From Girardia tigrina (lineage: Eukaryota), in contig MQRK01218788.1 in NCBI GenBank assembly GCA_001938485.1, positions 1-64,000 of the forward strand: a stretch of DNA of 64,000 nt, read 5' to 3'. Every line of letters begins with the position of its first letter. Positions within the stretch are counted from its first letter, which is position 1. The translations under genes were made by a program, and so were the position numbers. Below, one piece after another: positions 11,416-62,300 of this stretch. Under the pieces are notes generated by a model. That model saw only the letters and a program-made list of their open reading frames with translations. It ran no database searches and was not told where the DNA came from.

Positions 11416-12049
11416 TGTTAGGACTTCGAAAAATACATATGGATATTTTTAACAAAATTTTTGTGTATAAAAAATTTAAAATAATTCTTTAAGTAAAATT
11501 ATTAATTTCAGACAAAATAATATTTAGTTTAACAAAATTTGAAATTAAAAATTATAAATATTTTGGTGTTTGTTTTATTTGATCAATTTTCAAGGCTGAT
11601 GAAAACTATTATATAAACAGCAGCGAATTCATTTTTAGATTGCCAAAAAATTTTTACAAAAATTCAGCTCAAAAAATTGATCTTGAGTAAAGTTATTATT
11701 AATTTTACTTTATATTTTTGAAATTTAAAACCATAAGTATCCCGTAGGGGAGAACAAGGTTTTTAAGTAGAAAAAAACATCGTTCGTTTTGGAGATTCAC
11801 GGTTTTTACTGATATTTATTAACTCGCACGAAATATTAATTTGTGTTTGAGTTCTGTTATCAAAGAATTGGATTATTAGTATTGTTTTACGTGTTCATTT
11901 TTGTTATTTGAAAATAAAGTTTTAATAAAGAAATTGTGTTCACTTGTTTATATATTTGTGTCGGAAGAGCGTCCTGAATTATTGGAGTCAGATATAAAGG
12001 TGTGGTTAAAAGTTTGATAATAAAATTTGAATATTTTTAATAACCAACA
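11416..12049 (+). mobile_element. Solo LTR (family X, copy 1)
   Basis: TGTTAGG...CCAACA; alignable along its length with 55982-56650; flanks ATAG/ATAC (degenerate 4-bp TSD). Confidence 0.85.
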
Positions 12050-12559
12050 ATACTTTGATTTTTTTATTTCAGGTTTTACTAGAATTAACAGTTAAGCCAT
12101 ATTAAAATTGTTTCATACTGATTGATTGTCTTCATTTAATACAAATCTCTGATAAAATTGAACCATCAACAATTTCAATGCGAAGTTACTAACGTAGACG
12201 TATTTATTTGAATTGCAATCGAATTGCCAATAAAAGTAAATTCTTGGATTTTGATCAAAAATTTATGAACTTTGACAACTGGGTACTACGTACTCGAACT
12301 CGGAGGCGCCATCATAGCAATTTGAAAAAAAGACTGCACATGGAAGACTGCAAACAGGTGGTCAATGTTTTTTTCAATTTGAGTATTCAATTATTATTTA
12401 ACGCAATTTTTAGTCGCATGAACAGTCTCGCAAAACCATTAATAGTCCTGTATTCGTCTATTTGGTTATAAAATTCGATTTTATTTTCAGTTACAAAAGC
12501 AATGCCTTAGTATTATAATATTTTTCAAACAAAATTGAGAAATAATTTCAAATATTTTT

Positions 12560-24400: not shown

Positions 24401-27400
24401 AGACATTCCTGGATTAATTTACGCATTTTATTGCAAAGTAATAAATAAAATGCTTTTAAAAATCGATGATGAAAGACAATAATATGATTAAAATGACGCT
24501 TGAAGCAAATCTGTGTTTGCATAATTAATTGAGTTGTGTCAATCATTGGATCCAATGAAGCTTTTTTGATTTTATATTCAAGTTTATTAATTATGTTTTT
24601 CTAATTGTGAACATTGGGTCAATATGAATGATGTAACAAAGTTTCATATTCAATGCAGTTTCAAAAAATCTTGAAAATAAATGATTGAACGAAGTAACCG
24701 TAGAATGTTTGATGTAATAGTAGGTTAAACGCCATTCTAGTAATATACTGTCACTAAGATCACACAAAATATTATTTCACAAATAGTTGTTGCTTACAAT
24801 CTATTATCATTTTGTCAAAAAACAAATTTTTGTATTAGATCGATGCATAAGTTTCCGACATTTGATAAAAAAGGGATAAAATTTTTTAATCGTCCCTAAA
24901 ATCCACGTGTTTATTTTTTTTATTATTCTGTAAATGGATACCAATAAAAATCCCATACGCCACTGTATATTATTTATGTTTAATCTTGGCAAAAAAGCGT
25001 CGCAAGCGAAGGACGAAATTTATCAAGCACATGGTACAGGTTCTGTTGGTCTTACAACGATCAAAGAATGGTACGCCAAGTTCAAGAACGACGAATTCAA
25101 CCTGGAGGATCAGCCGAAAGAAATGGAGGACGGAGAGCTTCTAGTTCTCTTAGAAGAGGATGATGGACAGTCAACCCGTGAACTGGCCAAGTGCGTCAAC
25201 GTTAACCAGTAGACTGTCCTACGGCGTCTGAATGCTCTAGGAAAGGTTCAGAAACAAAGACGATAGGATGAATCGCCATGGCCCACCTTACCCACCACCG
25301 AAGAAAATCGTTTTTATGGAGAATCGTCGCTGGGGACGAGAAATGGATGTATTATGATAACCCAGAACGAAAGAGGCAATGAGTAGACCTCGAACTCCAT
25401 CAACCTCTACCCCAAAACGCAATATCCATGGCAAGAAGGTCCTTCTGTGTATGTGGTTGGATATGAAGGGCTTTAATTTAATTTAATTTGATTTATTATG
25501 GGCTGTTGTATCCCGGGCAAACGGTTACCGCACAAAGCTATTGTGATCAGCCATCTAAGCTGACCGAAAAAATCCGCGAGTTAAGGAAATATGTGGGCCA
25601 TAGGGACGCAAGGTCATACTGTTGCATGATAACGCTAGACCACATGTTGCGTCGGCGACGGAAAAATATAATTTTAGCGCTTGGATGGGAGGTTCAGCAT
25701 CAGACCTATTCACCGGACTTGGCTCTAACAGATTTTCATTTTCAACATTTCAAAACACGCGATGAAGTCAAGAAATGCTTAGATGACTTCATTGATTCGA
25801 AAGATGAAGACTTTTTCAACAAAGGCATCTATTTGCTGCCACAAAGATGGCAAAAGTCCATCAATGTTAATGGTGAATACTTTGAAGATTAATCGTACGC
25901 CACTTTGCTTTAAAAAGTAAATAGTTTTAATTAAAAATTGTCGGAAATTTATGCATCACCCTAATTTTAAAATTATACTTGTTACTTTACTTTTTTATTA
26001 AATATCATTAGTGGAACTTGTGGCAGAAGATTATGGAGTTCTGTTTCAAGAAAGCACTCCAACCTGATTTTTATACATCTTCGATCAATCAATATTGGCA
26101 ACTTTAACAAATAAAACAGCATGATTGATGCGTTTTATTTTATTTTAATTAATATTACCGTTATTCTAGATCGAGTTCGTTATGTTTATTTCACACAAAT
26201 TATGAAATTTCTTTGTAATTTTTTGGACATTTTTCACAGAATAAATTATCCCAACTAAGAGGGAAGAAACCTGAATCTACGATGATGACAACTAAAAAAG
26301 ACTGCACGTTTTAACAGCTCATTTCTACACAAAAAGTAATATCCAAAGAAATTTGAAATGGTTTTTTAGTTACTGTTAAAGTGTTAAAGGTTGTTTACTC
26401 TAAAATAAAAAACGAAATTAGAAACTAATTAAAAACAAACATGTTAAGGAATTTTTAACAAATAATGAAATATTTGATCAAATAAATTACTTTCTGAAGG
26501 TTATCGTCTGTAAAATTTAATTTTTTTAATGCTATTTTTCATGTGTCCTCTTGACATTTAAAGTAAGATTGAACTTTTAAACTTATAAAGGAATCATTTG
26601 GTTTTTAAAATCAAATAAAAATTAGTGATGAAATAAAAGACCTTCAAGAAAAGGAAGATTAAAGTTGTGATGAATGAAAATATGAATGAATTCAGAAGAA
26701 CTATGAAAATCCTCTCTGGAGACAATGTTGCTATAGTTCAATCATCATAACTTGCATTAGTATTATAAAACTTTTCAAAAATAAAAAGTAACTACAAATG
26801 TTTTTTTGGGGTTACTTTTGGTGAACTTTAAATTTTTGATATTTTTTAAAAATCATATTTATATTTTAGATAAAGTAAAAATAATGTCGATTAATTAAAA
26901 TGAAATAATTCTTTAAAATAAAAATTTATGTTATAGATAATATATTTACTAATTAAGATAAATAAGATTTTTTAAAAAAAAATATATTTTATAGTAACAT
27001 TTCTACAAATTAAATCGAAATAATTTTTGTAAAAATTATAGTTCACAGATAGTATATTACTAATTAAAATGAAATAAGTTTTAAAAAAAATTTTAGAGTA
27101 ATGATAATATTTTAATTAAATTGGGAATTTTAATTAAAATTTTAATTAATTAAAGTTTTAAAAAATTCACAATTAAATATCATCTTCGAAGTTAAAGAAT
27201 ATTGTAAAGAAGATTTTTATATATTTTGTAACACTATTTAAAATAAAATCGTAATACTTTTTAATGTATAAAATCAATATTAAGAAAAATAAATTTTAAA
27301 AAGAATGTAATTTTATTTAAATCAAATAAAAGATTTTTATTAAAAAATAATTTATCATCGAATGATTAAAAATCAAAAAAAACATTTAAGAAATGAATTT

Positions 27401-30400
27401 TTAAAAATCTAAATTTAGATTTCAATTAATAAACGTTGTAAAAAATTAATAAAACAAAAAAACAACATATGATACAAAATTGAATAAAAATAACATATTT
27501 GTATATTTATCGATATTATTATTTATATTTAGAATTTTGAGATCTGGATTATGTAACTGAAATATTGTTCCTCACAAATTTGTTTCAATAATGAAAATTG
27601 TAATAGAAATAAAGTTTACAAAATTATGACTTCCAATTTTAATCACGAACCTAATAGCTTTAATTATCAAAATGGGAAATAATTCATTTTATTATCGAGT
27701 TTTTTTATATTTTCAGATCCAAATCGAGTGACTAGATTGAACCAATAAAAGATGTTGATATTCTGTAAAATATAAATTGTATGAACCATACTGTTATGAA
27801 TGTTAATGATGATAAGTTTTTTTTTCAAATTATGAGCAACTGAACACCAACTCCAGTACTTGTAATATAATGACAAGAATACTTAACAAACTTTTAATTT
27901 TATAAACCGTTATAGATTATCGCTTCATCGATATAAATTAGTTTTTTACTAAGTTTCTTTTTCTATTTTAAATGTAGAATTTGTTTTTGCACATATTTGG
28001 AATATTTTGTGAATAATTTAACATTAATAAATAAATTATAATTAATGAGAAAAAAATTAATTAATAAAAAAGAATAAATAATTAAAACATTATTAAATGC
28101 GAAAATCTGTAATGAATTACTTCAGAAAATCCAAATATTCCTTCGTCAAAAGAGCTGATCTACAAGCTTCCTCTTCGGCAATATTATTCTAGAAAGATCA
28201 TTGGTCATTTAAATACTTATTTTCAAAAACAAAATATTAAGAATTAGATAATTTTAGTATTTTTATGAATGGTCAGACTTCAAAATCGTAAATCTTTTTA
28301 CTCTTACACGTGAAAATAATATCCTATATTATTTGATACGAAATTAGAATAATTTAGCAAAAGTAATTCAGTTCTAAAATATATTATCATAAAAAGGTTC
28401 ATCAAAAGTAAATCGATTATGTACACTAAAATCTTTGAGGTCGATTTTTTTCGTACCGAGAACATTATTATGCCATTATTAGGTTAATAATTATAAAAAG
28501 TCCGACTGCTCAAGTACAATTTTCTTTTGACTTCTAAACATATCAGTTATCAGTAGGGCCCATGATTTATAGCCTCCCGCGGATTTTTTTGCCGCGCCGT
28601 GAATTTAATGTTTTTTAGAGAAAAATCGTCACGCCGCGATTTCACCAAACTGCCGCGGAATTAGTCTACCAGCGCTGAAAAAAATTATTAATGCATTTTT
28701 TTAATAAATTTATTGATGAAATGCATTAATATTTATGCTCAGTGCTGGTTGGCTAATTCCGCAGCTGTAATGAATTTAATTTCCGATATGGAAATTATTA
28801 AAATATTAATATTCGGATTATTAGGTTGTCTTAAAAGTTCCCGGTCAATAATGAAAACAATTTTTTTCTAATTTCTTTTTGGTATTATTTATTTGATATT
28901 GATATATATCGATTTATTTATAGTATTATATTGACTACGAGATTACAAAGCTTGAAATCCGTGTGTTGCTGCGTCACTATTGGAAGAAAGGCTTGACAAC
29001 ACGAGGTGCTGCCAAGGTAATTTACAAAGTAGAAGGTACAAAAACGGTCGGAAAAAGTACGGCAATTGATTGGTTCAAGCGTTTCAACAAAGGCAACTTT
29101 GACTCGAATTACAGTCCTTGTTCTGGACGACCAAAAAATTTGTATAACGATAACTTGCAAGCAGAGTTGGACATGAAGCCTTTGTCAAGCATTAGCGATT
29201 TGTCATTTAAGCTTGGAGTTGGAAAGTCAACCATACATTGGCATTTGAAGCAGCTCGACTTTGTGCACAAGAAACCGCATTAAGATCCAAACGAACTCAC
29301 CAAAGCACATGCCTATAAAAGAGTCCAAATTTGCCAACAACTACTACAGAATCCACTAGATTATCGTTTTTGGAAACGAAATGTGACGTCGGACGAGAAG
29401 TGGGTCTACTTGGTGAACCACAACCGAAACAAGTGATGGGTTCCAAACGCAGTCAGTTCCAAAACAAGATCGATTTAGCTTGAAAATCATGTTGAACAAG
29501 CATGTCAAGAGTTCTTCGATTCGAAGCAGCCGGAATGGTACTTTGACGAGATCCGAAAGCTTGCAGACCGTTGGCAGAAGGTAGTCGAAAACGATGGACT
29601 GTTTTTTGAAGATTAATTGTTATTTTTTTAAAATAAATTCTTGTACAAAAAATTATATTTTTCATTCTTGACCGGGAACTTTTAGGACAACCTAATAAAT
29701 CATAGAACTTAAAAACTAATTTTTGCAATATTTTTATTTCGTGAAGTAATTCAAACTGATGTGACTGTATTTTGGAGTGCGTACAGGGCAGACTGCCTTG
29801 TTTAGCAGCACTTGCTAAAGTTTACATTGAACTGTTGATATGGAACGTGCTTTCTCAAATTATGAATTGGTGTTGTCACCATTGAGATATTCTCTACCAC
29901 AAGAAGAACTGCGAGCTTACGGTGCAGTTTTTTCAACAAAAAAGATGAATTGTAAATGTTTTGATATATTTCTTTGAGTATTTATTGTGATTGGCTGATG
30001 AATAGAAATAAGAATAGAAAAAAAAGAATATAAAGTTATTAAACTTGTATTATTATTTGTTTTTATAAGTTTCCAGGGCTACACAAAGCATGTCGCGGTA
30101 AATCGTGGGCCCTAGTTATCAGCAATTTTTGTTTGAAATACAATTAAAAAAATTAAATTAATCTTTATTTTATTCAGATCATAAGTAAAGTGAGAAATTC
30201 TTATATGAATTTCGGTGTGACCAAATGCAGCTAGTACGAGTCTTAATATCAAAGAAATATCTGATTTTGTTGATTTAATCAAGTGCACATTGTACCGCAA
30301 ATTTGATTGGAATCACTTGGAGATTTTGGTCTTGAAAATGAGACTTGTTAATATCCGAAGCCAAAAGTTAATAAAGATAATTTTACAGGGGTTTTTGAAT

Positions 30401-33400
30401 AAGTTCCATCTCAAAGTCCACATATTATTAAAAATAATTGCGTTAGATATTACTCGAACATTATCTATAGATTTTGTTCCTTTGAGCAAATACAATAATA
30501 GTCAAGTTGTATACGTAATACTTGCATTGTAATTATCTAGAAGTTTGTGTCTAAAATGTATTTCTGTTGGTGATATTTTAACTGAACTAAATATATTACA
30601 CCCGTCTTTATTCAATATAAGGTAATAGTAATAACATGTAGATAATAAGTGAATTAAATCAACAATAAATAAAATGTTTGAAGACATTTAAAAATAATTT
30701 AATAATTTTACATGCATCATGTCCAGCCAAACACTAAAATAACGAGAAAAATCACTCATGTCGAATAATTTTTTTTATTATTTTATCTTATTTATTTTTT
30801 TATTTTATTTAACTAAGTCGAGTAAATCATATTTTTAATTCCTAGTCTGAGTAACATTGTGTCAGAACAATACTGATTTAATTTTAGTAATCTGCGGAAT
30901 AATTTAAATGATTTATAAATTAAAAATAATAAATTTATTTTAATAAAATTTAAAATTATAAAAATCGAAAGACAACAACACTAATCAATGAGAATTGAAA
31001 TATTCAATTAAATATAAGATTTAACCCACTTTATTGTGGTGTTTCAATTAGAGACATAATAAATCAGAGAATAAAAAATAATAAATATTTGATAAAATAG
31101 TAAAATTACAAATAAAAACACTCACCAAAAGCCCGAGACATTTGTTGTAAATATGTGAATTGACATTCTGCGCTGCATTCTCAAACCGTTTGATCATAAT
31201 GAAGTATACTAGAAGTCCCTGATGTTGCACAAATTTCTTACATGCTGCCGTACATTCGTCCGTTAAATTCCACAATGAACTCAAAGCAAATTTCAATATG
31301 AAATCGAAAATCGGTTCACCAATTTGTCTCAAACCGACCCTTATTGTTGACAGATACGATGAATCAGAGACCTTTTCGAGATCGGATTGTAGGACGCATT
31401 TCCGACAAATCAGAGTAAGAAGACTTTGAAAATTAGAATCATCATCGACCAATTGACAAAGTTCAGATTTTGAAAGTTCTGATGCGATAACGGAGATAAT
31501 GATGACACCTGCTTGATTGATATTGTCGATATCATGCTGACGCATACCGCGGAACACGAGTTGGGATAAGCGCAACTTATCGTATCGAGCATGTTGAATT
31601 ATGAAATCATTACAGATGATTAAAAAACAATTGACAACGAGTTGAGTAATAACGTTTGGATGGTCGAGAAAATTTATCAAAAGTCGAACGAGCTCAGATA
31701 ATTCATCAATCGGCCAACGTTCCGCCAAACAACCTTTGGTTAAATTATACACAACGGCCGTTACCGTGATCAATAGATCATGCTGATCAGGTTTCACCCG
31801 CTGCATATGACAAATCACAGTTGAATTAAGAGTTTCATCAAAAAATGAACGACTTCTCGTCCGTTCGAAAAGTAAATGTAATGCGATTGGTAAATATCGT
31901 CCATGATTGAGCGAATAAATCAAACTATTGAGAATTGTATATTTTGAGAAAGCCCCAATGAATGTTATTTGAGGATTTTCGCGAATAAATCGTTTCCATT
32001 CAGTTCGTTGTGATATTCGCGATAATGAAACGAACTCTGGATGATAGACAAAAGTTTTTAGTTGAGTTGATTTTCGTATTAACGCAAATATCGTCCGATA
32101 GCGGATAGAGTTTTGGTTACCAGATAAATCGATGAGGCGGATTGTTGAGAGAAATTTACTGGACAAGAGATCAAAGTCTGATCCTATAGAAATTGATTTG
32201 TCGATGGATTCACCGTGTTCGGACATATCGAGATAACGCAGACGCGTCATGGGATTTAGAATAAAGAATAAGTTACGGTACGCGACAGGAGGTAAGTAGT
32301 GAATATCGAGAAACTCTAGTCGATCAACGACAAACGACAGACTCGAGAGATCATCAACTTCGGAACTGTTAATATTTATATGAAGTGTCAATTTAGTGTA
32401 TCATTTAATGAATAATAAAAAATAAATAAGAACAATTAATACTACCGTGTTCTCCCTATTACAAGCCATTCCTGCTTTTTTCTTCAATTTTGTAAAAAAA
32501 TAATTACAAGCCCCAGAAAATATATTATTTTAAAAAAGTCAAAGTATTAAAAAAGCCGCTTTTTTATTCTTACACACGAATTTTTAAAAAATTTTAGTTA
32601 GGGAACATTTTGAAAAAAAGTAATAATAATTATTTTTTTCAAAATATCGTGTTTATTTTAAATAGCATACATTACTTTGTAAAAATATTTTTGTTTTTTT
32701 AAAAGTCAAGAATGAACAATGGTGTGTATGTTTTACAATCTGAAAAGGCTTGTTCCACCAAAAGTGTGCTTAAAAAATGGATTGATATAAATTTTACATT
32801 GATGTTTCGAGGTGGCAGGCGGGATTTAATGATATGGGATTCTGCATCCACAAATCGAGCTTTGATTATGAAGGCTTTTTTTAAACACGAAAGATTGATC
32901 TTATTGTTATTCCAGCTGGAATGAAACTTTTCAGAAGCTTTTCAGAAACTTTAATTCATAAACATCAAATTTATGGTGAATAAATTAAAAATACTTTGGA
33001 AAAAACAACAGAAACAGTCCGTTAATTGGAGATATTTGTTGAGGATGTTGACTTTCATGATGAACCTGTTATTTTTTAATAAATATTGTGATTTATCGTT
33101 AGACTTACTTGTTGAAGTTATAATATATTAGACTTATGATGCTTATTGTTGATATGTTAAAGTGGTGTAGTATATATAATTCTAATATACGAGATTTATT
33201 CAAATTTTGTAATAAAAATTGATACATGCCACTAACTCATTACAAGCCACTATCGCTTTTTTGTCAAAAATTTAATACAAGCCATGGCTTGTAATAGGGA
33301 GAACACGGTAGAACGTGATAAATTATAAAATTATTGTTGCTTAAAAGAAATAGGTAAAATTGAAAACATATTTTTTTGAAAACACAATTTAAATATTTTC

Positions 33401-36400
33401 CTAGAATAAATAATATTTAAAATTTAATTAGGTTTATTTTATCCTCGAATTTATTAGAAATAGACCATTTTCATGATTATGGTGTTGCCAGTTTAAATAA
33501 GGTGAATATTTAATGACCCGATATTTTATTAATGTACCAGATGACCAGAAATTTTGTTTTGGAGATTGCAATTTTCATGATGGAAGAGCCCATGATTTTT
33601 AAATGTCTGATATATTGGCAGGTTTGCTGATATTTGTTTCAATGAAACCGAACTGAAAGTACTGTAATATTTGTAGTACTTAAAACTGCAAAGGAGCGAT
33701 TGAATGAAATTTGTATCATAACTGTGTAGATTGTTTGATACACCCATTTCCGATTAGATATGCCATATAGGCATTTAAAAATGACAATAAATATTATGTT
33801 TCATTTATATTGATTTTTTATTATGTTTTTTGGTTTTTTCTCACGTCATAAATCAAATAATTTGATTTGCATCATTTGATTTATGATTATTTACATCTTG
33901 AAGATTTTTTAGGATTTATTTGATGCATGATATACACCTATTCCCCATTATAAATATTATAAATACCACGTAGGCATTTGCAAATGACATCATTTATATG
34001 ATTTAATGACTTTCGAGTCGTTTTACGCTTAGTAAAGTTCATTTTTTGTTAATTAATTTAGGATTATTTATGAATTAATTTGTGATTCTTTATGAATTAA
34101 TTTGTGATTATTTATTAATTAATTTGTGATTATTTATACATTAATTTGTGATTATTAATTAATTAATTTGTGATTATTTATGAATTAATTTGTGATTATT
34201 TATTAATTAATTTGTGATTATATTATGAATAAATTTGTGATTATTTATTAATTAATTTGTGATTATTTATTAATTACTTTGTGATTATTTATTAATTAAT
34301 GTGTGATTAATTATGCATTAATTTGTGATTATTGAAACAAGCATCGTTAACGATATATCGTCGCTCCCTAAATAAAATCTTATCAAAATCTTAAATATTA
34401 GCTCTAGAATTACCACAGTTACCTTGTTGCAAAAGATTATTACTCTCACGTCCCCGATTTTCTAATGAGCCATCCGCGATTTAAGAGTACTAGTCTCTGT
34501 ATTTAGACATGCATGGCTTAATCTTTGAGAATAGCATATGACTACTGGCAGGATCAGCCAGATATGTAAAAAAATCATAACTATTCATGTGCTAAACTTT
34601 TCGGTCCAGTAGTGACTCAGTTAAATTGCCGGTAGCAAACTAGCACTAATTTCTTAACACCATCCACATATCAATCGTTGCTACCTACTACTACACCTGT
34701 TCCCGATTAGATGTGCCATGTGGGCATTCTATTAGATTCCTGGATGAAAATATATGTAAATTAATTGGAAAAAAGTAATCTAAGCAATGGAAATGGATCT
34801 GAGGGTCATTCTGATGAGAAATGTCAAATTATGAAGAATGGGTAGAAAAAATCCGAACAAACCTCATCACATACTAACAAGACACATATAACTTCGATAC
34901 AAACACGGATATATACATAATTTAGAAGCATTTGTCAGAACCGTAAGCATTTATATATGTCACTTGACACTTTAAAAAAATAAATTAATAATCATAAATT
35001 AATAAATATTAATAATTAATTCATAAATAATTACAAATTAATTCATAATATAATCACAAATTAATTCATAAATATTCACAAATTCATTAATAAATAATCA
35101 CAAATTAATTCATAAATAATCACAAATTAATTCATAAATAATCACAAATTCATTAATAAATAATCACAAATTAATTCATAATATAATCACAAATTAATTC
35201 ATAAATATTCACAAATTCATTAATAAATAATCACAAATTCATTAAGAAATAATCACAAATTAATTAATAAATAATCACAAATTAATTCATAAATAATCAC
35301 AAATTAATTCATAAATATTCCCAAATTAATTCATAAATAATCACAAATTAATTCATAAATAATCACAAATTAATTCATAAATAATCACAAATTNNNNNNN
35401 NNNNNNNNNNNNNNNNNNNNNNNNNNNNNNNNNNNNNNNNNNNNNNNNNNNNNNNNNNNNNNNNNNNNNNNNNNNNNNNNNNNNNNNNNNNNNNNNNNNN
35501 NNNNNNNNNNNNNNNNNNNNNNNNNNNNNNNNNNNNNNNNNNNNNNNNNNNNNNNNNNNNNNNNNNNNNNNNNNNNNNNNNNNNNNNNNNNNNNNNNNNN
35601 NNNNNNNNNNNNNNNNNNNNNNNNNNNNNNNNNNNNNNNNNNNNNNNNNNNNNNNNNNNNNNNNNNNNNNNNNNNNNNNNNNNNNNNNNNNNNNNNNNNN
35701 NNNNNNNNNNNNNNNNNNNNNNNNNNNNNNNNNNNNNNNNNNNNNNNNNNNNNNNNNNNNNNNNNNNNNNNNNNNNNNNNNNNNNNNNNNNNNNNNNNNN
35801 NNNNNNNNNNNNNNNNNNNNNNNNNNNNNNNNNNNNNNNNNNNNNNNNNNNNNNNNNNNNNNNNNNNNNNNNNNNNNNNNNNNNNNNNNNNNNNNNNNNN
35901 NNNNNNNNNNNNNNNNNNNNNNNNNNNNNNNNNNNNNNNNNNNNNNNNNNNNNNNNNNNNNNNNNNNNNNNNNNNNNNNNNNNNNNNNNNNNNNNNNNNN
36001 NNNNNNNNNNNNNNNNNNNNNNNNNNNNNNNNNNNNNNNNNNNNNNNNNNNNNNNNNNNNNNNNNNNNNNNNNNNNNNNNNNNNNNNNNNNNNNNNNNNN
36101 NNNNNNNNNNNNNNNNNNNNNNNNNNTTAATTCATAAATAATCACAAATTAATTCATAAATAATCACAAATTAATTCATAAATAATCACAAATTAATTAA
36201 TAAATATTCACAAATTAATTCAAAAATAATCACAAATTAATTAATTTGTGATTATTTATTAATTTTTTTAAAGTGTCAAGTGACATATATAAATGCTTAC
36301 GGTTCTTACAAATGCTTCTAAATTATGTATATATATATATGTGAATAAAGGTGTGATTTCATTATATGTTAGATAACAAAGGCAAGCAGTCTTTCTAGGC

Positions 36401-37347
36401 ATCGTTAACGATGAAGGTTTTTCGATGCATCGACCATTTTCAACGATGTGTCGCTCTCTAATTTTATTCAATGATTAAAACTTTATGTCAGAAATATAAT
36501 CAACACAACAAAACAGACATGCCACACAATTTTAGCCATAAATGTTAGACCTGGAGTTGTAACCTTTAATATCTACCGATTATGTTTGTCTCGATTGTGG
36601 ATTTTATTTCGAGTTATGAATTAAATAATGAATTGAAACCTTCAATTTATGTTGTGAAATTGGAAAAATAACATTTAGATACACAGATATTTGATCGAAT
36701 TAGTATTTCAGTCACTTTTGAAGAGTGCTACAGCAAATATTATGTTTGTGTTTAATAATAAGCGACAAAAAGTGAATGGACACATAATCACGATTAAATC
36801 AACCAATAACAATCACAAACCTGGAGATATTCAGTCCGACAATCGACGGCAAATTCTCGCAGATCTCTCTCAACTGGGAGCTGCGCAAATTCGTCTTGGA
36901 CAAATCGAGGAACTTAAGCGCGCGCATCTCCCGCATCAGTCCCAGAGGTGACGTGGACAACCGGATGTGTCTCAGTCGCAAGTAGCCCAGTCGCTGTCGT
37001 GTCTGCTCGTTGAAATGACCGAGAAAGTGCTCCAATTCGACATTTTCATCGAATCGCGTTGAAAATGAGGTCAAATTGAACGTGTTCAAGAAGCCGTAAT
37101 CGTCGATTTGATGCGCAGATTTATCTAGACAGATATTCGATATTGTTGATATCAATGGAGAGAAATGGCGCAACAAATTCGAGTGGTTCTTCGAGATCAA
37201 TAATCTCTCGAGCATTTTCTGTGACGGGCGCTCGGGCAAACTGATGTCGACGATGTAGGTTTTGGGGTCCGGTGAGTTGTCGAACAGTTTTGTGAGAAAA
37301 TCGAAACAGTTTTCGACGCATAAATCCTCTAATGATCTGATATGCAT
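15305..37347 (-). CDS. zyg-11: ZYG-11/ZER1-family Cullin-2 E3 ligase substrate adaptor (BC/VHL-box, LRRs, ARM-like repeats), 6 exons, about 762 aa
   Basis: Exons 36821-37347, 31126-32365, 28121-28188, 21623-21755, 21394-21547 and 15305-15471. All are GT-AG and phase-compatible, totalling 2289 nt with no stop. Motifs: SLEDLC (BC box), LKFALSSLWNLTDECTAAC, KCLGLL|NNIAE, MTYFAGGILS, YRSFSPF, LWSLWAI. Confidence 0.93.
15675..17103 (-). mobile_element. mariner (cecropia/Hsmar1-like), apparently full length, middle in an N gap
   Basis: TIRs TTAGGTTGGTCGAAAAATAATGGCGGTTTT with TA TSDs; N-terminus IRAIFLYEFKLGRKAADTARNIN; C-terminus KCIDANGSYFD* (stop 15750). Confidence 0.95.
17414..18347 (+). mobile_element. 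pogo-like (POGK/Tc2-type) transposon remnant
   Basis: GTATAAGACG subterminal motifs; Brinker-type DBD RRKYEASFKIKVV...AAARKFGV followed by CENP-B HTH (PELENYIAEWV). Confidence 0.8.
18897..19538 (+). mobile_element. mariner deletion derivative, same family as 15675-17103, opposite orientation
   Basis: Same TIRs with TA TSDs; KWVPHDL motif, then a jump to the terminal SYFD*. Confidence 0.92.
19541..19680 (+). repeat. Dispersed fragment homologous to 58790-59070
   Basis: TTTTTATATATAATATTAAAA..TTATGTATCA..ACGGTAAC.AAGGTACTTGTGATTG...TTCATGA is shared with 58796-59065. Confidence 0.7.
19792..21025 (+). mobile_element. ITm DD37E-family transposon, degenerate
   Basis: Imperfect TIRs with TA flanks; MDDETYV; DLTSCHY...NPPNCSELRPIE with 37 residues between D and E after correcting one frameshift. 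Confidence 0.85.
21394..21755 (-). CDS. zyg-11: zyg-11-like exons 4 and 5 (75-nt intron 21548-21622)
   Basis: KMLNQEDIQMTYFAGGILSNL and YSAVDSWVTPNFLMASYRSFSPF...LWSLWAI. Confidence 0.88.
23161..24330 (-). mobile_element. Probable 5'-truncated non-LTR retroelement 3' end with three C2H2 zinc fingers, structured 3' UTR and (TTAAA)4
   Basis: FQCPMENCHKTY...LKRHLFIDH, FWCPFTHCMK...LYNHGTRDH, plus a frameshifted third finger (PSCFKAF...LKRHIKNVH); hairpin-rich UTR; pentanucleotide repeat 23219-23238. Confidence 0.5.
24835..25964 (+). mobile_element. mariner, degenerate
   Basis: TIRs TTAG..GATGCATAA.TTTCCGACA; IRHCILFMF, GDEKW, LHDNARPHV, YSPDLALTDFH, LPQRWQK...GEYFED. Confidence 0.9.
28121..28188 (-). 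CDS. zyg-11: zyg-11-like exon 3
   Basis: NNIAEEEACRSALLTKEYLDFL; flanked by TTCTAG and GTAATT. Confidence 0.88.
28554..30114 (+). mobile_element. Non-autonomous hAT element hosting a mariner
   Basis: TIR TAGGGCCCAYGATTTA; perfect 8-bp TSD GTTATCAG; dimerisation-domain remnant (LAALAKVY...ERAFS) at about 29770-29930. Confidence 0.92.
28821..29695 (+). mobile_element. mariner, internally deleted
   Basis: TIRs TTAGGTTGTCYTAAAAGTTCCCGGTCAA with TA TSDs; IRVLLRHYWKKG...SGRP, TSDEKWV. Confidence 0.92.
31126..32365 (-). CDS. zyg-11: zyg-11-like exon 2 (LRR and ARM region)
   Basis: Acceptor AACAG, donor GTGAG; contains LWNLTDEC. Confidence 0.92.
32445..33308 (+). mobile_element. pogo/Tc2-like deletion derivative
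   Basis: Perfect TIRs CCGTGTTCTCCCTATTACAAGCCAT with TA TSDs; DDE remnant LMIWDSAST...VIPAGM. Confidence 0.88.
34050..34333 (-). repeat. 22-bp minisatellite (TTAATTTGTGATTATTTATGAA)n, about 12 units
   Basis: Seen directly; reverse complement of the array at 34980-36240. Confidence 0.95.
34370..34563 (-). rRNA. 18S: 18S rRNA 5' fragment (about 190 nt), degenerate orphon/pseudogene
   Basis: Minus strand reads ATCTGGCTGATCCTGCCAGTAGTCATATGC...AAAGATTAAGCCATGCATGTCT...GCGGATGGCTCATT...GGTAATTCTAGAGCTAATA. Confidence 0.93.
34916..36327. mobile_element. Foldback/MITE with about 80-bp TIRs and an internal 22-bp minisatellite
   Basis: CATAATTTAGAAGCATTTGT.AGAACCGTAAGCATTTATATATGTCACTTGACACTTTAAAAAA is inverted at 36264-36327; inserted in a TA run. 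Confidence 0.85.
34980..36240 (+). repeat. 22-bp minisatellite (ATAATCACAAATTAATTCATAA)n, partly in an N gap
   Basis: Seen on both sides of gap 35394-36126. Confidence 0.95.
36821..37347 (-). CDS. zyg-11: zyg-11-like exon 1 (BC box and LRRs)
   Basis: MHIRSLEDLCVENC...LKFLDLSKT...GLNIS; donor AG|GTTTGT. Confidence 0.9.
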
Positions 37348-40330
37348 TTGTAGATATATGAATATATAATATCGAGATTGAGAAAGAGAGAGAGATAGGT
37401 AGATATAAATAGAGGTTGTGGTAAAAAAACTTCAAGTAAAAAATGCCAGAATGAGATAAAAAGAAAATAATCAAAAAATATTGAAAATGTTTATGAGAAT
37501 TAAAAAGATTCGAATTAATCTACTGGAAAGAGAATTATGTACATGATTAAAACAAAATTAATTGTGGGGGTTTTTTGTAGAAATAAATTCTTTAATTTGA
37601 CATTTAATGGAAAATATATTTTATTATAACGCTTTGAAATTTTTTTTAATACAAATTTTGGTAGTTTAATGAAGAATGAATTTTTTCAATTATATTTTGT
37701 TATAAATGAAGAATGATTATAGCATTGATAAAAAATTAATTTTGTGACTAATAAAAATATTGGAATTGAAATAAAATGTTTTTCAAAAAAAATTAAAATA
37801 AAAAATTTTATTTATGTGTTTGTTTTTCATTAAAAAATTAATTCTTAATTCAACAAATTTTTTTGTCAATAATTATACTAACATTGTTGATGTAAACAGA
37901 TTTCCTTCATCTTTAGCATGTGTTTTATTGTTGTGTCACCGAATTTTGATTTACAGCAATAAAAATGGTTCATGTTTTCTTTTGAAATTTTTTATTATAT
38001 TGGGCTGTTTCATTAGTTCTAACTCTTTTTAAAAGATTTATTTTTAAATAAATCAAAGAATTCTAAAAACCTAAAAAATTACTCAGTCAATTATTAATTT
38101 TATGAAATCAAAAAATTTTAACAGCGAATATAATAAACATAAATCAATTATGTATTCTTGTTACTTTTTCAATAATTCTTATAATCCTTACACCAGTTTA
38201 TTGATTCCATTTTTCCAGAAATTCTTAGGTCGAGTCTCAAAACTGATGTTGGCGTATCTAGATGATTATTAAAATGATAATGAAAAATCAAAAAGATTCT
38301 TTTATAAAATATTTATTGACGATAAAATTATATACAATTTTTTAAAAACAACTTAATCTTTATTAAGTGCATTTATATATTGGGTAAGATGGAGAAATGA
38401 AATTCTCTTGCTCCTAGTAGATTTTAAAATATATAAAAATATATTAACCAAATATATATTAATATATTGGTGTTAATTCGTACTTTAATAATAGCTTTGC
38501 TCGGATTCAGTTCAGATGATCAAATTCAATTTTTGTCTTAAAAACTTTTAATCAATTCGATCGCTTTTAAATGATGCGGAACTTTCCAGGTAGATCATTT
38601 ATTCGATTAAAATAAATTCTTCGAATTCTCGATCTTGCGATGACCTTCGTTTTTTAATGTTAAACTTCTGGGGGGTTTGCGAATTATTACGCTTTGACCT
38701 CCGTTGAAATCTAACAAAGGAAAGTTGTAATTCGATAAAATTAGGTCTTTGGACGATTATAAAATTTTTTGATTTTAGATGCTTGATTTTATGTAAATAT
38801 TTATGAAACAGTAAATGACAATAAAATATAATAAATGACAGTAAATGACAACACAAGCTTCTCTTTTTAATAAATTTTTATTTATTATATACAATAATTA
38901 CAAATAAAGAATTATTACAATTGAAATATGTTTCCTTAATGTGTGATGCTTGATTTTAGTGGTGGTCACAGTACATCGACTGCAGACCACAAATAGATGA
39001 GTTTAATAATAATAAAGATTATTAATTTAAAATTTAAGTAATAATAGATAATAATTAATTATTGATTTTAGAATATTTAAAATTTAATAATAAAAACTTA
39101 TAATTAATTTTCAAGAACCTCACCCTGTACGAAAATTAATATCTTCCAATTAGTAATTTCTCGTTCCTTCGGACGGTAACTGATTTTCGTAATAACTCTT
39201 TCTTCTGAGCAATAATACAATTATTACAATTTTTCTCTTCTGGACAAAACAATTTCTTCTTCTGAGCAATATTACAATTTTCTCTTCTGAGCAAAAAGGC
39301 AATTCTTCTCCGTGATTGTACCTGAAGATTATTAAATTCTTTTGTGCTAAGTTTTGTGATTTTGGTTTAACTATTTATATTTTTTAGACTTGCGTAGCCT
39401 ACATTGATCTACGCAAGTTTATTGTTGATTTTGAGTAGGCCAGTTCAAGATTTTTTATTTTGAACTTAAAAAATGTTTAAAATTATTTATAATAAATATA
39501 ATATTTAATCAAACTTAACTTTAATATTTATTTAAATTATTATAATAAACATAATATTTTAATTAAACTTAACTATAATATTTATACTTTTAGAAATATA
39601 AATTTCAATAATATCATCGTATTATTTATTTAACATATTAAATAATACATTGTCTTTATTTACAATAAAAATGATAATAAAATAATTAAAATAAACAAAC
39701 ATAAATAAAATAAGTAAAACAAAAGCACATCCCCAACATTAAGGTCAATTAAATAATTCTTCAATTAATTACGGTCCTTTCTTCTTTTACAGATATTTTT
39801 TTGTCGTCCTTAAAAAGTATTCATTGGGTGCAGGTCTGCCGGTGAATCACCCAATCTTTCCTTTTCTTCATTTTCAATCTAGAGACACGATTTTTCGTCT
39901 CCAGTGGCGATTCTGTATATGAAACATTGCCTATTTGAAATAGGCTGTTTCCGAGGGTTTCTAGGTGTCGAGAAAGATTTTGAGCAGCAATGTAAAATCG
40001 GTAATTTTTGTTTTTGGTTGAGTTAATGTGAACCCAAGCTTCAAGCTTTTGAAGGAAATCCATCAACTAAAGTTTGAAATTATCTTAAAATTATAAGCAT
40101 CTTTTCTTCCAATTTTCTGCAAACCTTGCGGCCATCTTCCTTCCAATGATTCCCGACTTTATCCTCGTCTATCTAGACTGAACATCCGGAGCGATGAAGG
40201 TAGTTGAGGTCGAAATGATTTTATTTGAACCTAGAAAACTAATCTCGATCAATTTTCTCAGCTAAAGTGTTATTTCTTTACACAACGCAAATGTCTTTCG
40301 TACCTTCACTCAGTTTTTGATCTCTATTAA

Positions 40331-55981: not shown

Positions 55982-56650
55982 TGTTAGGGTTTCGAAAAAT
56001 GCATATGAACACTTTTGGATAAAATTTTACGTAGAAAAATTTTTAAAATAATTCTTTTGGTAAAATTATTAATTTCAAACAAAATAATATTTAGTTTAAC
56101 AAAAGTTGGAATTGAAAATTAAAAATATTTTAGTCTTTGTTTTATTTTATCAATTTTCAAGGCTGATGAAAATTACTATATAAACAGCTGCAAATTTAGT
56201 TCAGTTTGCCCAAAAAATTCTCTTGTCAAAAACAAAACCAAGGAAACTCGTTATATAGAATTATTTTTATTTATTATTCTTTTTAAAATATTCTTTTGTT
56301 TAAAACATAAGTATCCCGTATGGGAGAAAAGGGTTTAATTTAAATTTAACCATTCGTTCGTTTTGGAGATTCACAGTTTTTACTGTAATCTGCTAACTCG
56401 TACGATATATTGTTTTGTGTTTGTGTTCTGTCATCAAGAATTGAATTATTATTATTATTTTTGATTTGTTAATTTTTGTTATTTGAAATAAAGTTTCATA
56501 AAAGAATTTGTGTTCATTGTCTATATATTTATGTTGGAAGTCCTTTCTGATTAATTAGAGTTAGATTAAAGATTTCAGTTTAAAGATTAAAGAATAAAGA
56601 TTTGTGTTTAAAAAGTAAATAATTATATTAAAGATTTTTAATACCCAACA
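55982..56650 (+). mobile_element. Solo LTR (family X, copy 2)
   Basis: TGTTAGGG...CCCAACA; perfect 4-bp TSD CATT; internal TATA-like and AATAAA motifs. Confidence 0.92.
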
Positions 56651-57209: not shown

Positions 57210-57790
57210 ATGTCCGACTGCGAAACCGAGACATTCGCCTTTCTGGCCGAAATCGCCTAGTTGATGAGTCTAATCATCAACACGTTCTACTTTAACAAAG
57301 AGATTTTTCTTCGGGAATTGATCTCCAATTCCAGCGATGCGCTTGACGAGATCCGTTACAAAAGCTTGACGGATCCATCCGTGCCCGTCACCACCAAAGA
57401 ACCAATGATCGAAATCATCCCGGTCCAAGATGCTGACACTCTCACTCTCATCGACACAGGAATCGGCATGACGAAAGCCGAGCTCATCTGCAATCTTGGA
57501 ACGATCGCTAGATCTGGAACCATAGCATTTATGGAGGCGCCGCAAGCCGGTGCCGACATCTCGATGATCGGTCAATTCGGTGNNNNNNNNNNNNNNNCGT
57601 ATCTGGTCGCCGACAAAGTTCAAGTGATTTCCAAGGGCGACGACGGCGGGCGGCATCTGTGGGAATCGTCCGCGGGCGGTTCGTCCACCGTCAAATCCGA
57701 CAACAGCGAGCCGATCGGCCGAGGAACGAAAGTCTTTTTATGCATGAAAGAAGACCAAATCGAATATCTAGAAGAACGGAAAATCAAATA
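57210..57790 (+). pseudogene. HSP90: Cytosolic HSP90 N-terminal ATPase-domain fragment (nonsense codon, truncated)
   Basis: [44 protein letters not shown]...DTGIGMTK...[10 protein letters not shown]...MIGQFG...YLEERKIK, then unrelated sequence. Confidence 0.95.
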
Positions 57791-59576
57791 CGATGGGCCG
57801 TTTGGGCGTGATGGCCGCCCCTCTGTTCGAAAATCCGCCATCCCAACTCGGTTGNNNNNNNNNNNNNNNNNNNNNNNNNNNNNNNNNNNNNNNNNNNNNN
57901 NNNNCAAATCGAATATCTAGAAGAACGGAAAATCAAATACGATGGGCCGTTTGGGCGTGATGGCCGCCCCTCTGTTCGAAAATCCGCCATCCCAACTCGG
58001 TTGGTTGAACGATTCGCCTCTTCTTTTTTTTCCTTTTACATTCAGGAACGTGTTGTCGAGCGAGAGGATAGTTGCCCGTTCTCCGACGGCCACAGAGAGC
58101 TGGACTATCAACTCGCATCAATGTGGGAACAGACGGAAGTTCCGCGCTCGAGGCGTGCTTCCGCCAACGTCGACTCAACAACGGGGTTATCGCCTCATCT
58201 TACCGCGGTCGCCGCTCGGCGCCTCACGTCCGTGTCTGGAGCAACAGCCTCCTTGAACTTTTCAGTTGACATTATGGATGCATGACGATATCACTTTGGA
58301 TACGACCGTGTTTTGAATGGTTGATACGATATTGGTCGATAACATAGTATAATATCATAATATAATACATACCTATAATATAATATTTGAACACATAATG
58401 TGCATATATTCGAAAAAGCACTAGGTATCGATTTTTTCAAAAATGTTGATATTGAATCTGACTATTCATATATAAGTTACTATCCATGTGTTCAGACAGA
58501 TTTTTGATGATATTAAAACATCAATATGTTGCAATTTGCACAATTGTGAACTTATTGATTCTGCACACTTGCACATGTGAAGTATTGATTTGCACATTTG
58601 CATTATTGATTAGCACATATGCAGTATTGACTAGCACATATGCAGCCTAGGCAGCACATGTACAGACGAGTGCAGTATTGATTTTTGCACTTTTTTGTGT
58701 AATTTTGGTGGTTTTTACATGTTTTCGATGATTTCTAAGAGGTTTTTCATGGTTTTTTAAGGTAACGGTGATGGTTTCTAAGGTGTTTTCGACTGTTTTT
58801 ATATATAATATTAAAAGGTTATGTATCATGATTACGATAATCTAGGTACTTTTGATGGTTAATGCCTAGGCTCAGGTACTTAGTTGATTATGTAGATGTT
58901 ATGTATAATGTTGATGCATGTTTTAAGTACTATAGAAGTTTTATACATGTAGTTTTTACATGTATAATAAAAGGTTATGTATCTTGGTTACGGTAACCAA
59001 GGTACTTGTGATTGATGAGTAAGTACATTAAAAAATTCATGAAGTATTGTTTTAAGGTAAACAACATACATATATCCTATGGGTTTCAGATATATACGAA
59101 AAAATCGATTTTTAGCACTTTTTTGAGAATTTCAGAAATGTTCGAAAAAATTGATTTATCAGCACCTTTTGATAATGTTAATGTGGAATCTGAATGTAAG
59201 TATATGTGTTACTATTCAAGTGCATCAGCACATTTTTGATATTCTGCTTCCTTCTGTCTCTAAAATGGATGTGCATTTTGTGTAAATTTGCATATTATGC
59301 TAATTATAGGGAAAAGTAATCAATATATGAAAATTATAATTGCACATTCAGATAGAGAATCAAAATGTGCATCAAACACATGATATCGATTTTTGACGCC
59401 AGAACTTAAAAAATTTTATGTATTGATTAATGCCCTTTCGCACATGTGCAACTTAAAAAGCGCTGTGCTAGCACATTAGAAATGTGCGGCACAATGTGCA
59501 CTATCGATTAGCACTTAAAAATATCGATTAGCACATCTGGGCACTGTGCAGCGATTGATTAGTACTTTTTGCTACG

Positions 59577-59875
59577 GTTGCTAGGGAAAGGGTGACAGTT
59601 GCTATGGATACGGTAACCGTTACCATGGTTACAACCGCCTTGACTCACTGTACCCATTGCTAATTAAAAACGCCCTTGGTTACCGTTTCCATGGGAACCG
59701 AAACCATTGCTGCATAGGCTAAGGAACCTGGAACCAATCAGAAGCGTCCCCAAGGTACCGGTAACCAATCGGAACCGTTGCTATGGTAGCCGGAACAGTT
59801 TCTATGACAACCGGAACAGTTTCTGTGGTAACCGGACCCGTTGCCATGGCAACGGGTGACTGCCCCACCGCCCCC
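59577..59875. promoter_or_regulatory. Array of RFX X-box-like palindromes with AP-1, CCAAT and GC-box motifs
   Basis: X-box matches start at 59577, 59598, 59619, 59685, 59777, 59798, 59819 and 59840 (GTTGCCATGGCAAC, perfect); TGACTCA at 59641; CCAATC at 59734 and 59765. Confidence 0.6.
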
Positions 59876-59923
59876 GGGGGGTCAATTATTGATTGAGGGA
59901 GAGTCCCAATTTTCCCCCTACTA

Positions 59924-62300
59924 ACGGTGATAGCATATGGTTCAAAATCCATGATGAAATACGAAATTGGATTTTTTATCACCAGAAAAGAAATGTTAGC
60001 AATCTTTTATTTCACCCAACAATTCAATTTTCTGTATGGTGCACGGTTTCGATTGCGGACAGATCATAAAGCAATAGCTTTCATAATGACGATAAAAAAT
60101 CCGATTTCCCCTCAGTTCCAAAACGGGATGAATCACCTGAGCAGTCTCATAATGAAATTGGAGTATAGAAAAGGAAAGCTACATCAGAATGCAGAGGATT
60201 TTTCAAGAACTGAGTGTAGTATTTGCACACAATGCCTGATGCCACATGAACAAGCTAAAAAGGGTAAACAGCGAACCCGTTTGTTAGCTTTAAATCAAGA
60301 AGAATCACCGATTCCGTGGTAGCAAAACAACAAGGAAATACAGGAAATACTGGAGGAAATTAACTCACTGGACAATCCAAAATTCAGAATCGAGTCAGGA
60401 TGTGTTCGATCATTGGATGGACGAATTTGGATTCCAAAAACGATGAGAAAATGATGTATTTTATTTTTTCATAGGTTCCTATGTCATGCCGGAGTAAAGA
60501 AAACATACTCTTTTTTGAAAGAGGAACGCCATGGAAAATTTTACAAAAATGGTAGAATTGGTAGTGCGCAGTTGTAGTTCATGTCAGAAACAAAAACTTA
60601 TACAGGACCAACAAAAGAAGAGACGAATTCGCTAATATCATCTTATCCCTTTGAGGATGTTTACGTGGATTTTTGTGGATCAATGCCTGTAATAAATGGA
60701 AAGAAATATATTCTGGGAATATTTGATAGGTTTATTAGATATATAAGTTTGACTGCAGTGAACAACCAAGAAGAAATGACTGTCATAAATACGATTTTGA
60801 AACGTTGGATATTTAGATTCAGATCTCCTGCATACCTCTATGTAGATCATGGGAAGGTTTTTGAATCAAAAGCATTTATAGATTTCACAAAATCCATGTT
60901 GACTAAACTTAAGTTTTCAAGTCCATTTCATCACAGTGCAAACGGAATAATTGAACGTCAGTTTCGAACGGTACGAGATACAATAAATGCCGCATTACAA
61001 GAAAGCAGAAAGACAAATTGGGTGCAACTTTTACCAGACATTGAGTTTAGTATTAATGCGCCAAAACAAAGTACAATAGGATTCAGTCTTACGGAAGTGA
61101 TTTTAGGGAAGCGTATAACTTTAGATGGCTTTCGTCAATATGATTTAGATAATAAAAAAGTCATCAAATGTGTAAGAAAAATAGAAAAAGATAAATTGTC
61201 GGATGAAAAACAAAAGAGAATATTCATGAAGGGGATACCGCGCTTGTTAATATAGAAAATAGACAAAAGGGTACAGATCGATATGAAGAACCATACAAAA
61301 TTACTCGAAAAAAACATGACCGTAGTGTTGAGTTGATAAACAAATCAGGTCGAGTTATATGCAGGAATATAGAATGGTTGAAACCTTTTAAAGAGGGAGA
61401 GATGTGAGGATAATAAGATATATATATATATATATACGTGTTGGGTATTAGAAATATTTAATATAATTATTTACTTTTTAAAACACAAATCTGAAATCTT
61501 TAATCTGAAATTTTTAATCTGACTCCAATTAATCAGAAGGACTTCCAACATAAATATATAGACAATGAACACAAATTCTTTTATGAAACTTTATTTCAAA
61601 TAACAAAAATTAACAAGTCAAAATAATAATAATTCAATTCTTGATGACAGAATACAAACACAAATCAATATTTCGTACTAGTTAACAGATTATAGCAAAA
61701 ACTGAATCTTTAAAACGAACGAATGGTTAAATTTAAATTAAACCTTTTTCTCCCATACGGGATATTTATGGTTTAAAGAGGATAATATTTTAAAAAGAAT
61801 AATAAATAACAAAAATAATTCTATGAGTTTACTTGCATCCTTTTGTTTTTTGATGAGAAAATTTTTTGGGCAAACTAAACTAAATTTGCTGCTGTTTATA
61901 TAGTAATTTTCATCAGCCTTGAAAATTGATACAATAAAACAAAGACTAAAATATTTTTAATTTTTGATTCCAAATTTTGCTAAACTAAATATTATTTTGT
62001 TTGAAATTAATAATTTTACCAAAAGAATTATTTTAAATTTTTCCTACATAAAATTTTATCAAAAGTGTTCATATGTATATTTCGGAACCCTAACATAAGT
62101 ATTTATAATAAAATATTTCTATTTATAATTATAATCTATTAATGGATCCAAAGTATTCTTAATAAACATCTCCTAAGTTTGAAAATTTGTAACAGATTCA
62201 AATTATTGTGTAATTTTTTATTTTAAATAAATGTTGGAAAATTCTTATAATTGTTATTTCATTTATTAAAATTTAAATTTTATATATTTTTATGTTAACA
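59924..62300 (+). mobile_element. 5'-truncated Ty3/gypsy element (RNase H, integrase, 3' LTR), related to 4164-9428
   Basis: VIAYGSK...RTDHKA; YVDFCG; NGIIERQFRT; PPT AAAGAGGGAGAGA, then TGTGAGG at 61403; LTR interrupted by a solo LTR; right boundary approximate. Confidence 0.9.
61439..62095 (-). mobile_element. Solo LTR (family X, copy 3) nested in the gypsy 3' LTR
   Basis: Reverse complement of 55982-56650; flanks TACG/TAAG. Confidence 0.9.

What the first reader, a model, noticed from the sequence alone, without database searches (positions are those of the whole stretch)
59577..59922. Helically phased RFX X-box enhancer-like array at the tip of a putative virus-like transposon
Seen: eight 14-bp X-box-like palindromes (GTTGCTAGGGAAAG, GTTGCTATGGATAC, GTTACCATGGTTAC, GTTTCCATGGGAAC, GTTGCTATGGTAGC, GTTTCTATGACAAC, GTTTCTGTGGTAAC, GTTGCCATGGCAAC). 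Seven of them form two blocks with exact 21-bp spacing (59577/598/619 and 59777/798/819/840), i.e. two helical turns. Between the blocks lie TGACTCA and two CCAATC boxes, and a GC box follows. The units differ from each other yet mostly keep the palindromic consensus. Known: GTTGCCATGGCAAC is the canonical RFX site; RFX controls ciliary and spermatogenic genes; RFX + bZIP + NF-Y is the logic of the MHC-II X/X2/Y module; adenovirus ITRs carry host TF sites. Inference: a mobile element may have built an RFX-responsive enhancer or origin into its terminus, perhaps to be active in ciliated or male germ cells.
Basis: partly seen in the sequence, partly recalled or inferred. Interest (0 to 1): 0.8.

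Follow-up and report, generated by a model that had tools for sequence, protein, structure and literature searches.

The report
RFX-site array in Maverick transposon end
The end of a dead virus-like transposon in a probable flatworm genome carries a regularly spaced row of binding sites matching the host cilia regulator RFX, and a similar layout turns up in related ends from another source, hinting at how these elements borrow host factors to switch on.

Summary
The array is real. All eight 14-bp boxes, the 21-bp spacing, TGACTCA, two CCAAT boxes and a GC box are at the stated places. Five boxes match the published DAF-19/RFX consensus exactly; they are the only exact sites in 64 kb (0.56 matches expected). 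Differences between boxes fall mostly on positions RFX tolerates (8 of 12, P 0.006-0.05) and are never compensatory, which favours protein binding over hairpins. The array starts 70 nt inside an end reading AGTAGG, a documented Maverick/Polinton end motif, which abuts a cut Gypsy gene. One collection scan found three non-coding repeats, probably animal contamination in one bacterial bin. They share a sharp AGTA(G) start, a similar first 30 nt and three boxes at 21-bp period, but with other partner motifs. Best reading: a host-factor array in a Maverick terminal repeat, most likely bound by RFX, opening and driving the end. This copy is a gene-less fossil. The other end, target duplication, RFX binding and germ-cell activity were not testable. 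Bacterial MarR operators show the same palindrome pairs, so an element-encoded binder remains possible.

The parts
59893..59922 (-). Terminal 30 nt of a Maverick/Polinton-type element, starting AGTAGG at 59922; inferred core origin and integrase end
   Evidence: End motif listed for tuatara and axolotl Mavericks; lies 4 bases from the Gypsy break; anchored similarity to three external ends P=0.0004, 0.003, 0.016; top hit of a tip profile built without the window, E=0.62
59777..59853 (.). Outer block: four X-box-like 14-mers at 21-bp period; the outermost is a perfect X-box inside a perfect 22-bp palindrome (59836-59857)
59577..59632 (.). Inner block: three X-box-like 14-mers at 21-bp period, in helical phase with the outer block
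59685..59698 (.). Single X-box, exact consensus match, out of phase with the blocks
59746..59759 (.). Degenerate ninth box (2 mismatches to the consensus), 31 bp from the outer block, followed by a typical spacer
59732..59771 (+). Two NF-Y-type CCAAT boxes (59732-59740, 59763-59771), 31 bp apart
   Evidence: P=0.001 in local shuffles; motif label recalled
59641..59647 (.). AP-1-like TGACTCA
   Evidence: P=0.012; 2 such sites in the window
59860..59892 (.). G+C-rich stretch with GC-box-like motif and short palindromes between array and tip
   Evidence: (GC box P=0.13, not significant)
58290..59576 (.). Non-coding subterminal body of the same element (inner limit uncertain): zones rich in GCAC and ATYGAT motifs, an old internal duplication (about 58435-58660 with 59167-59556) and a second 21-bp array of a different motif at 58567-58659
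   Evidence: 58794-59069 matches 19535-19664 at 79-85%, so it is a dispersed repeat
59923..61402 (+). Flank, not part of the element: decayed Gypsy pol, cut in RNase H at the element's tip
   Evidence: Pfam RT_RNaseH and rve; 68-72% identity to the copy at 7182-9232, alignment starting at 59927

Best explanation
The stretch is the outer part of a terminal inverted repeat of a Maverick/Polinton-type element, now a gene-less fossil. Read inward from 59922 it is built like a linear DNA virus end: about 30 nt of conserved tip (inferred site of protein-primed initiation and integrase action), then an array of host-factor sites. Most likely host RFX dimers occupy the X-boxes on one face of the helix, two turns apart, helped by NF-Y and a bZIP factor here and by other general promoter factors in related families. 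The bound array keeps the end free of nucleosomes and drives inward transcription of the element's genes, and may also help load the replication and integration proteins. Shown: motifs, spacing, bias of variation, end motif, shared layout. Inferred: Maverick membership, RFX as binder, every functional step.
For: Exact fit to the DAF-19 consensus taken from a paper. The two most variable columns, 4 and 11, are the two free positions of that consensus; 8 of 12 distinct variants are tolerated against 14 of 42 possible, P=0.006, rising to 0.017, 0.039 and 0.052 with transitions weighted 2, 4 and 6. No compensatory arm changes. AGTAGG//CCTACT is a family-level Maverick end in a published table; Polintons are abundant in some flatworms, 748 polymerase copies in 8 of 73 genomes; the host looks like a flatworm. 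Three external repeats, found by the box pair alone, share a sharp start at AGTAGT/AGTAAG with unrelated flanks and three boxes 84-175 nt inside. RFX1/3 bind the AAV terminal repeat and viral enhancers. Planarian cilia-module promoters are enriched for the RFX motif.
Against: No Maverick gene in the window (0 of 132 reading frames) or in the external loci (0 of 10 frames); no second end or target duplication. Unanchored, the tip is not more like the external ends than like unrelated loci (score 24 against a best of 26 among the other 53), and the tip profile hit has E=0.62. The external loci are three copies of one family in one bin, selected for carrying two boxes, with at most 600 bp of flank. 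The boxes are related by duplication, so the variant test has few independent events. The spacers are almost as conserved as the boxes, which a simple RFX-dimer model does not require. 16 of 56 scan hits are MarR operators with the same paired palindromes, so the motif does not name its binder. No binding or chromatin data.
Confidence: 0.55

Rival explanations
1. Maverick end, but the boxes are iteron-like sites for a protein that the element itself encodes (a winged-helix domain of a D5-like helicase, or one of the uncharacterised conserved proteins), and the likeness to RFX sites reflects a shared fold.
For: Winged-helix MarR genes sit behind the same paired palindromes at 21 bp in 16 of 18 promoter-like bacterial hits. 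Three half-sites per 21 bp suggest a protein row. Some related viruses encode D5-like helicases; vertebrate Mavericks keep genes of unknown function. Recalled: phage P4 and D5 origin-binding domains have an RFX-like fold; EBV dyad sites and plasmid iterons use two-turn spacing.
Against: The neighbouring motifs (CCAAT pair, E-box-like and YY1-like repeats) look like host promoter-factor sites. The same box is kept in ends from apparently distant hosts, whereas self-encoded site/protein pairs usually drift (inference). The listed core genes of vertebrate Mavericks include no helicase.
Confidence: 0.2
2. The end belongs to another cut-and-paste superfamily (hAT-, Academ- or Kolobok-like) and the boxes are subterminal transposase sites.
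For: Subterminal site arrays are common in such elements (recalled). The window end could also be read as starting TAG, and no Maverick gene is linked.
Against: The base before AGT is C, C, G and T in the four ends, and the flanks are not TTAA or TA, so the boundary is at AGT; AGTAGT and AGTAGG are the listed Maverick ends. The superfamily end rules are recalled, not checked in a paper.
Confidence: 0.1
3. A neutral 21-bp minisatellite that arose by slippage from a chance palindrome and has no binder.
For: The element is full of short repeats, including another 21-bp array with a different motif; spacers are conserved with the boxes; with strong transition bias the variant test is only borderline (P=0.052).
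Against: Variation concentrates on the free consensus positions; the same period and motif recur at a similar distance from the tip in a separate family.
Confidence: 0.1
4. The palindromes work as single-strand hairpins in replication of the end, or the stretch is a host enhancer unrelated to a transposon.
For: One perfect 22-bp palindrome; folding z about -2.
Against: Seven of eight boxes have broken symmetry with no compensation; hairpin positions differ among the four ends; the stretch ends on a transposon-type motif against a cut Gypsy gene, with no intact host gene close by.
Confidence: 0.05

Closest known systems
Maverick/Polinton terminal inverted repeats (PMC8097293: passages and supplementary table rows seen)
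   Same: End motif AGTAGG//CCTACT, listed for many tuatara and some axolotl copies; non-coding end of a length within the reported 46-1,447 bp range is plausible.
   Different: Only one end, no genes, no testable target duplication. The passages seen describe only the 6-bp end motifs, not internal factor-site arrays.
RFX1/RFX3 site in the AAV ITR D sequence, and EF-C sites of HBV and polyomavirus enhancers (PMC5760533: abstract and passages seen)
   Same: RFX site in a viral terminal repeat or enhancer, acting on expression.
   Different: One site, with binding shown; here eight to nine sites in a phased array in an endogenous element of an invertebrate, binding not shown.
Adenovirus ITR: core origin plus auxiliary host-factor sites (recalled, no call)
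   Same: Protein-primed end with a short conserved tip followed by host-factor sites.
   Different: Adenovirus uses single NFI and Oct-1 sites next to the core; here a homotypic array begins 70 nt inside.
Heat-shock-element clusters in Caenorhabditis Helitrons (PMC6927752: passages seen)
   Same: A transposon carrying a dense cluster of one host factor's site.
   Different: Different superfamily; there binding and gene induction were shown; here the cluster is tied to the element end with a fixed period.
Paired MarR operators in bacteria
   Same: Near-identical 14-bp palindromes, 21 bp apart, beside a winged-helix gene.
   Different: Two sites straddling a -10 box in a bacterial promoter; no homology beyond the motif.

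Membership tests
Maverick/Polinton | Terminal motif of the (AGT)2 type | tested here: met
   AGTAGG at 59922 on the minus strand, a listed variant; AGTAGT in 2 of 3 external ends
Maverick/Polinton | Paired terminal inverted repeats | tested here: inconclusive
   No inverted copy of the tip in the window; the other end may be deleted or outside
Maverick/Polinton | 6-bp target-site duplication | not testable with these tools
   Flank hexamer not found before an AGT start in the window; external loci too short
Maverick/Polinton | Protein-primed polymerase B, integrase and capsid-module genes | tested here: not met
   No such Pfam match among 132 window frames of 70 aa or more or 10 external frames; the rve matches belong to Gypsy elements. 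So this copy is at most a non-coding remnant, not an element to be filed as a member on gene content
RFX X-box | Match to the published consensus | tested here: met
   5 of 8 exact, 2 with one mismatch, 1 with two
RFX X-box | Variation confined to tolerated positions | tested here: inconclusive
   8 of 12 distinct variants tolerated, P=0.006-0.052 by mutation model
RFX X-box | Binding by RFX | not testable with these tools
   No binding data and no position-weight-matrix library on hand
MHC-II S-X-X2-Y module | Fixed X, adjacent bZIP site, CCAAT distance | tested here: not met
   TGACTCA is 8 bp from the nearest box and 93 bp from the nearest CCAAT; CCAAT centres lie about 16 and 45 bp from the nearest strong box centres, not near the 29-bp peak cited in PMC4889920
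Helitron | 3' hairpin about 11 nt before CTRR, inserted before T (recalled) | tested here: not met
   The junction reads CTAA then C, and the strong hairpin is 65 nt from the end
hAT / Academ / Kolobok / Tc1 ends | YAG or TAG start, or TTAA or TA targets (recalled) | tested here: not met
   Base before AGT varies (C, C, G, T) and flanks lack those targets in the four ends

The most novel reading that the evidence does not exclude
Phased RFX arrays are a conserved part of animal Maverick ends and act as the host switch for the element: RFX bound two helical turns apart licenses transcription, excision and protein-primed replication in RFX-rich cells such as spermatogenic or ciliated cells, with interchangeable helper motifs per family. 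That would supply a candidate trigger for elements whose particles have not been seen, and would make Mavericks a source of RFX sites scattered through invertebrate genomes.
Probability: 0.22. Interest if true: 0.85.

Novelty: new variant of a known kind. Interest (0 to 1): 0.62.

Why it matters
When and where endogenous Mavericks become active is open; their virions have not been observed (abstract listing of PMC8097293). A defined host-factor array in the end names a factor, a cell class and a knockdown experiment. It also predicts that many RFX motif hits in such genomes are transposon-derived. Host-factor sites in viral ends are a known principle; the phased homotypic array in a Maverick-type end, seen in two separate families, was not found in the searches run.

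Tried and rejected
Rfam scan of the window: 0 matches. blastn of the end against plasmids gave 3 chance hits of 26-34 bp, phages none; L037 against both none. Unanchored tip alignment did not separate the external ends from other loci. Folding gave only z of -1.3 to -2.1 and no shared structure. Whether the Hsp90 fragment lies inside the element stayed unresolved: the flanking bodies align at score 64 against a shuffle maximum of 63 and a background maximum of 80. The frame at 58046-58282 had no Pfam or Atlas match. Model R1 found only the array itself, which was in its training set. Reading the end as a Helitron 3' end, a polypurine tract before an LTR, or a TAG-type start was considered and rejected on the shared AGT boundary. 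Papers that gave nothing for the question: PMC11464507, PMC11410931, PMC11071193, PMC8363768. The single genome-contig scan was run with 600-bp flanks, so the external loci could not be extended.

Full report
Observation. The eight 14-mers, their coordinates and the 21-bp steps are as reported. Using the DAF-19 consensus GTHNYY AT RRNAAC, read in a figure legend of 10.1101/2020.08.21.260547 (passages), five boxes match exactly and they are the only exact sites in the window; 0.56 matches were expected and 0 of 100 shuffles reached the count. Local shuffles give 0.002 exact sites against 5. The CCAAT pair (P=0.001) and TGACTCA (P=0.012) exceed local chance; the GC box does not (P=0.13). PMC3414849 (passages) gives the same palindrome as the classic site and notes that working X-boxes often have one strong and one weak half.

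Anatomy of the array. The boxes are weak palindromes, with arm matches of 3 to 6 of 6 and no compensatory changes. What they keep is the RFX pattern: columns 4 and 11, free in the consensus, are the two most variable, and 8 of 12 distinct variants are tolerated where 14 of 42 possible changes would be (P=0.006; 0.017, 0.039 and 0.052 with transitions weighted 2, 4 and 6). The boxes share ancestry, so this is moderate evidence. The two blocks are in phase (15.05 turns), the single box is not, and a ninth degenerate box lies at 59746.

Surroundings. The window is A+T-rich and crowded with mariner, Tc1-like, piggyBac-like, FLYWCH and Gypsy remnants around a zer-1/zyg-11-like gene. The best named relative of that gene is from a monogenean flatworm at 30% (1 of 3 hits), and among named hits the highest identity listed for an Hsp90 fragment is Dugesia japonica at 83%; a flatworm host is an inference from these. 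The array is followed by 69 nt and then a Gypsy pol gene cut in RNase H, whose alignment to another copy starts at 59927. Read inward, the end starts AGTAGG at 59922. Such a hexamer pair occurs 10 times on that strand in 64 kb, so finding one within about ten bases of the break has a chance near 0.002 (my arithmetic). Inward lies about 1.3 kb of non-coding DNA in motif zones, with an old internal duplication and a second 21-bp array; 130 bp of it recurs at 19535, so it is a dispersed repeat. No Maverick gene was found in 132 frames, and no second end.

The end motif. PMC8097293 (passages) gives (AGT)2 as the commonest vertebrate Maverick end and ties the repeat to jumping-back initiation. Its supplementary table holds AGTAGG 37 times; the 32 places seen are nearly all 5' end motifs, mostly paired with CCTACT, in tuatara and axolotl elements. 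The supplement of PMC10748475 (part 1 of 266 seen) lists 748 Polinton polymerases in 8 of 73 flatworm genomes. The parts of these supplements that I read held no terminal sequences.

Related ends. One scan of bacterial and archaeal contigs for two exact boxes 21 bp apart gave 56 loci. Three, L034, L037 and L044, come from small scaffolds of one bin, are 78-82% alike over 113-207 bp, have no Pfam match in 10 frames and read like eukaryotic repeats; animal contamination is my inference. Their likeness begins sharply at AGTAGT (two) or AGTAAG (one), with unrelated flanks, and three boxes at 21-bp period follow 84-175 nt inside. The start motif was not part of the query. An AGTAG(T/G) lies 40-200 nt before the boxes in 3 of these 3 and in 2 of the other 53 loci. 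Anchored after the first five bases, the window tip matches them at P=0.0004, 0.003 and 0.016 against random sites, and a tip profile built without the window ranks 59922-59890 first in the window, though at E=0.62. Against this, unanchored alignment is not significant, the three copies are one family, and two boxes in each were forced by the query. Their partner motifs are E-box-like and YY1-like (labels recalled), with no CCAAT.

A control from the same scan. 18 of 56 loci have TTGAC just before the pair, often with a -10-like spacer, and 16 of these 18 precede a MarR-family gene. Winged-helix dimers other than RFX can therefore use this palindrome at this spacing.

Mechanism. Most likely (0.55) this is a Maverick terminal repeat built like a linear-virus end: a conserved tip for protein-primed initiation and integration, then a host-factor array. 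RFX dimers two turns apart would hold the end open and drive inward transcription, and might aid initiation, as host factors do at the adenovirus end (recalled). RFX1 and RFX3 bind the AAV terminal repeat and act through viral enhancers (PMC5760533, abstract and passages). In planarians an Rfx factor is linked to cilia modules whose promoters carry the motif (PMC12660999, passages). All functional steps are inferred; germ-cell activity has no evidence here. Rivals: an element-encoded binder (0.2), another transposon class (0.1), neutral slippage (0.1), hairpin or host enhancer (0.05). The MHC-II comparison fails on geometry (PMC4889920, passages) and on the swapped partner motifs.

Novelty. 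Host sites in viral ends and site clusters in transposons (PMC6927752, passages) are known. A search for polinton with RFX returned 1 paper, unrelated; the exact palindrome occurs in 3 papers, none on transposons by title; broader searches listed nothing on RFX in Maverick ends (in one search only 30 of 104 papers were listed, and maverick with RFX alone was not searched). Subscription journals, Repbase notes and bioRxiv supplements were out of reach and may describe it. Other papers were seen as passages only: PMC6431247, 10.1101/2023.08.22.554363, PMC8502044. Verdict: a real feature, a new variant of a known kind, interest 0.62.

Noticed in passing
window 57210-57790 (+): 5' fragment of an Hsp90 gene with start codon, an early stop and upstream A+T-rich DNA, switching at about 57790 to another G+C-rich piece with an apparent splice acceptor near 58045; possibly captured fragments inside the element, but that link is unproven.
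   Followed up: partly
window 58567-58659: Second 21-bp-period array inside the same element, with a different unit containing GCACAT and ATTGAT motifs.
   Followed up: partly
L003, L006, L010, L016, L017, L020, L023, L026-L028, L033, L035, L039, L046, L049, L053 (around 601-635): Paired X-box-like operators between -35 and across -10 of MarR-family genes, mostly in Acidobacteria and Streptococcus.
   Followed up: partly
L034, L037, L044: Probable eukaryotic repeat contamination in one bacterial bin (record prefix WPAE01); L037 has a tandem run of a YY1-like motif right after the boxes.
   Followed up: yes
window 55982-56650, 61439-62097, 11416-12050: Three copies of one solo LTR of about 650 bp; the first has a 4-bp target duplication, the second sits in a TA run inside the Gypsy 3' LTR.
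   Followed up: partly
window 34041-36264: 22-bp satellite in two oppositely oriented blocks forming long inverted arms, like a foldback element.
   Followed up: no
window 57756-58003, 7598-8419: Exact duplications on both sides of N gaps, probably scaffolding artefacts.
   Followed up: no
window 21170-37431 (-): zer-1/zyg-11-like host gene in widely spaced exons, with transposon-filled introns.
   Followed up: partly
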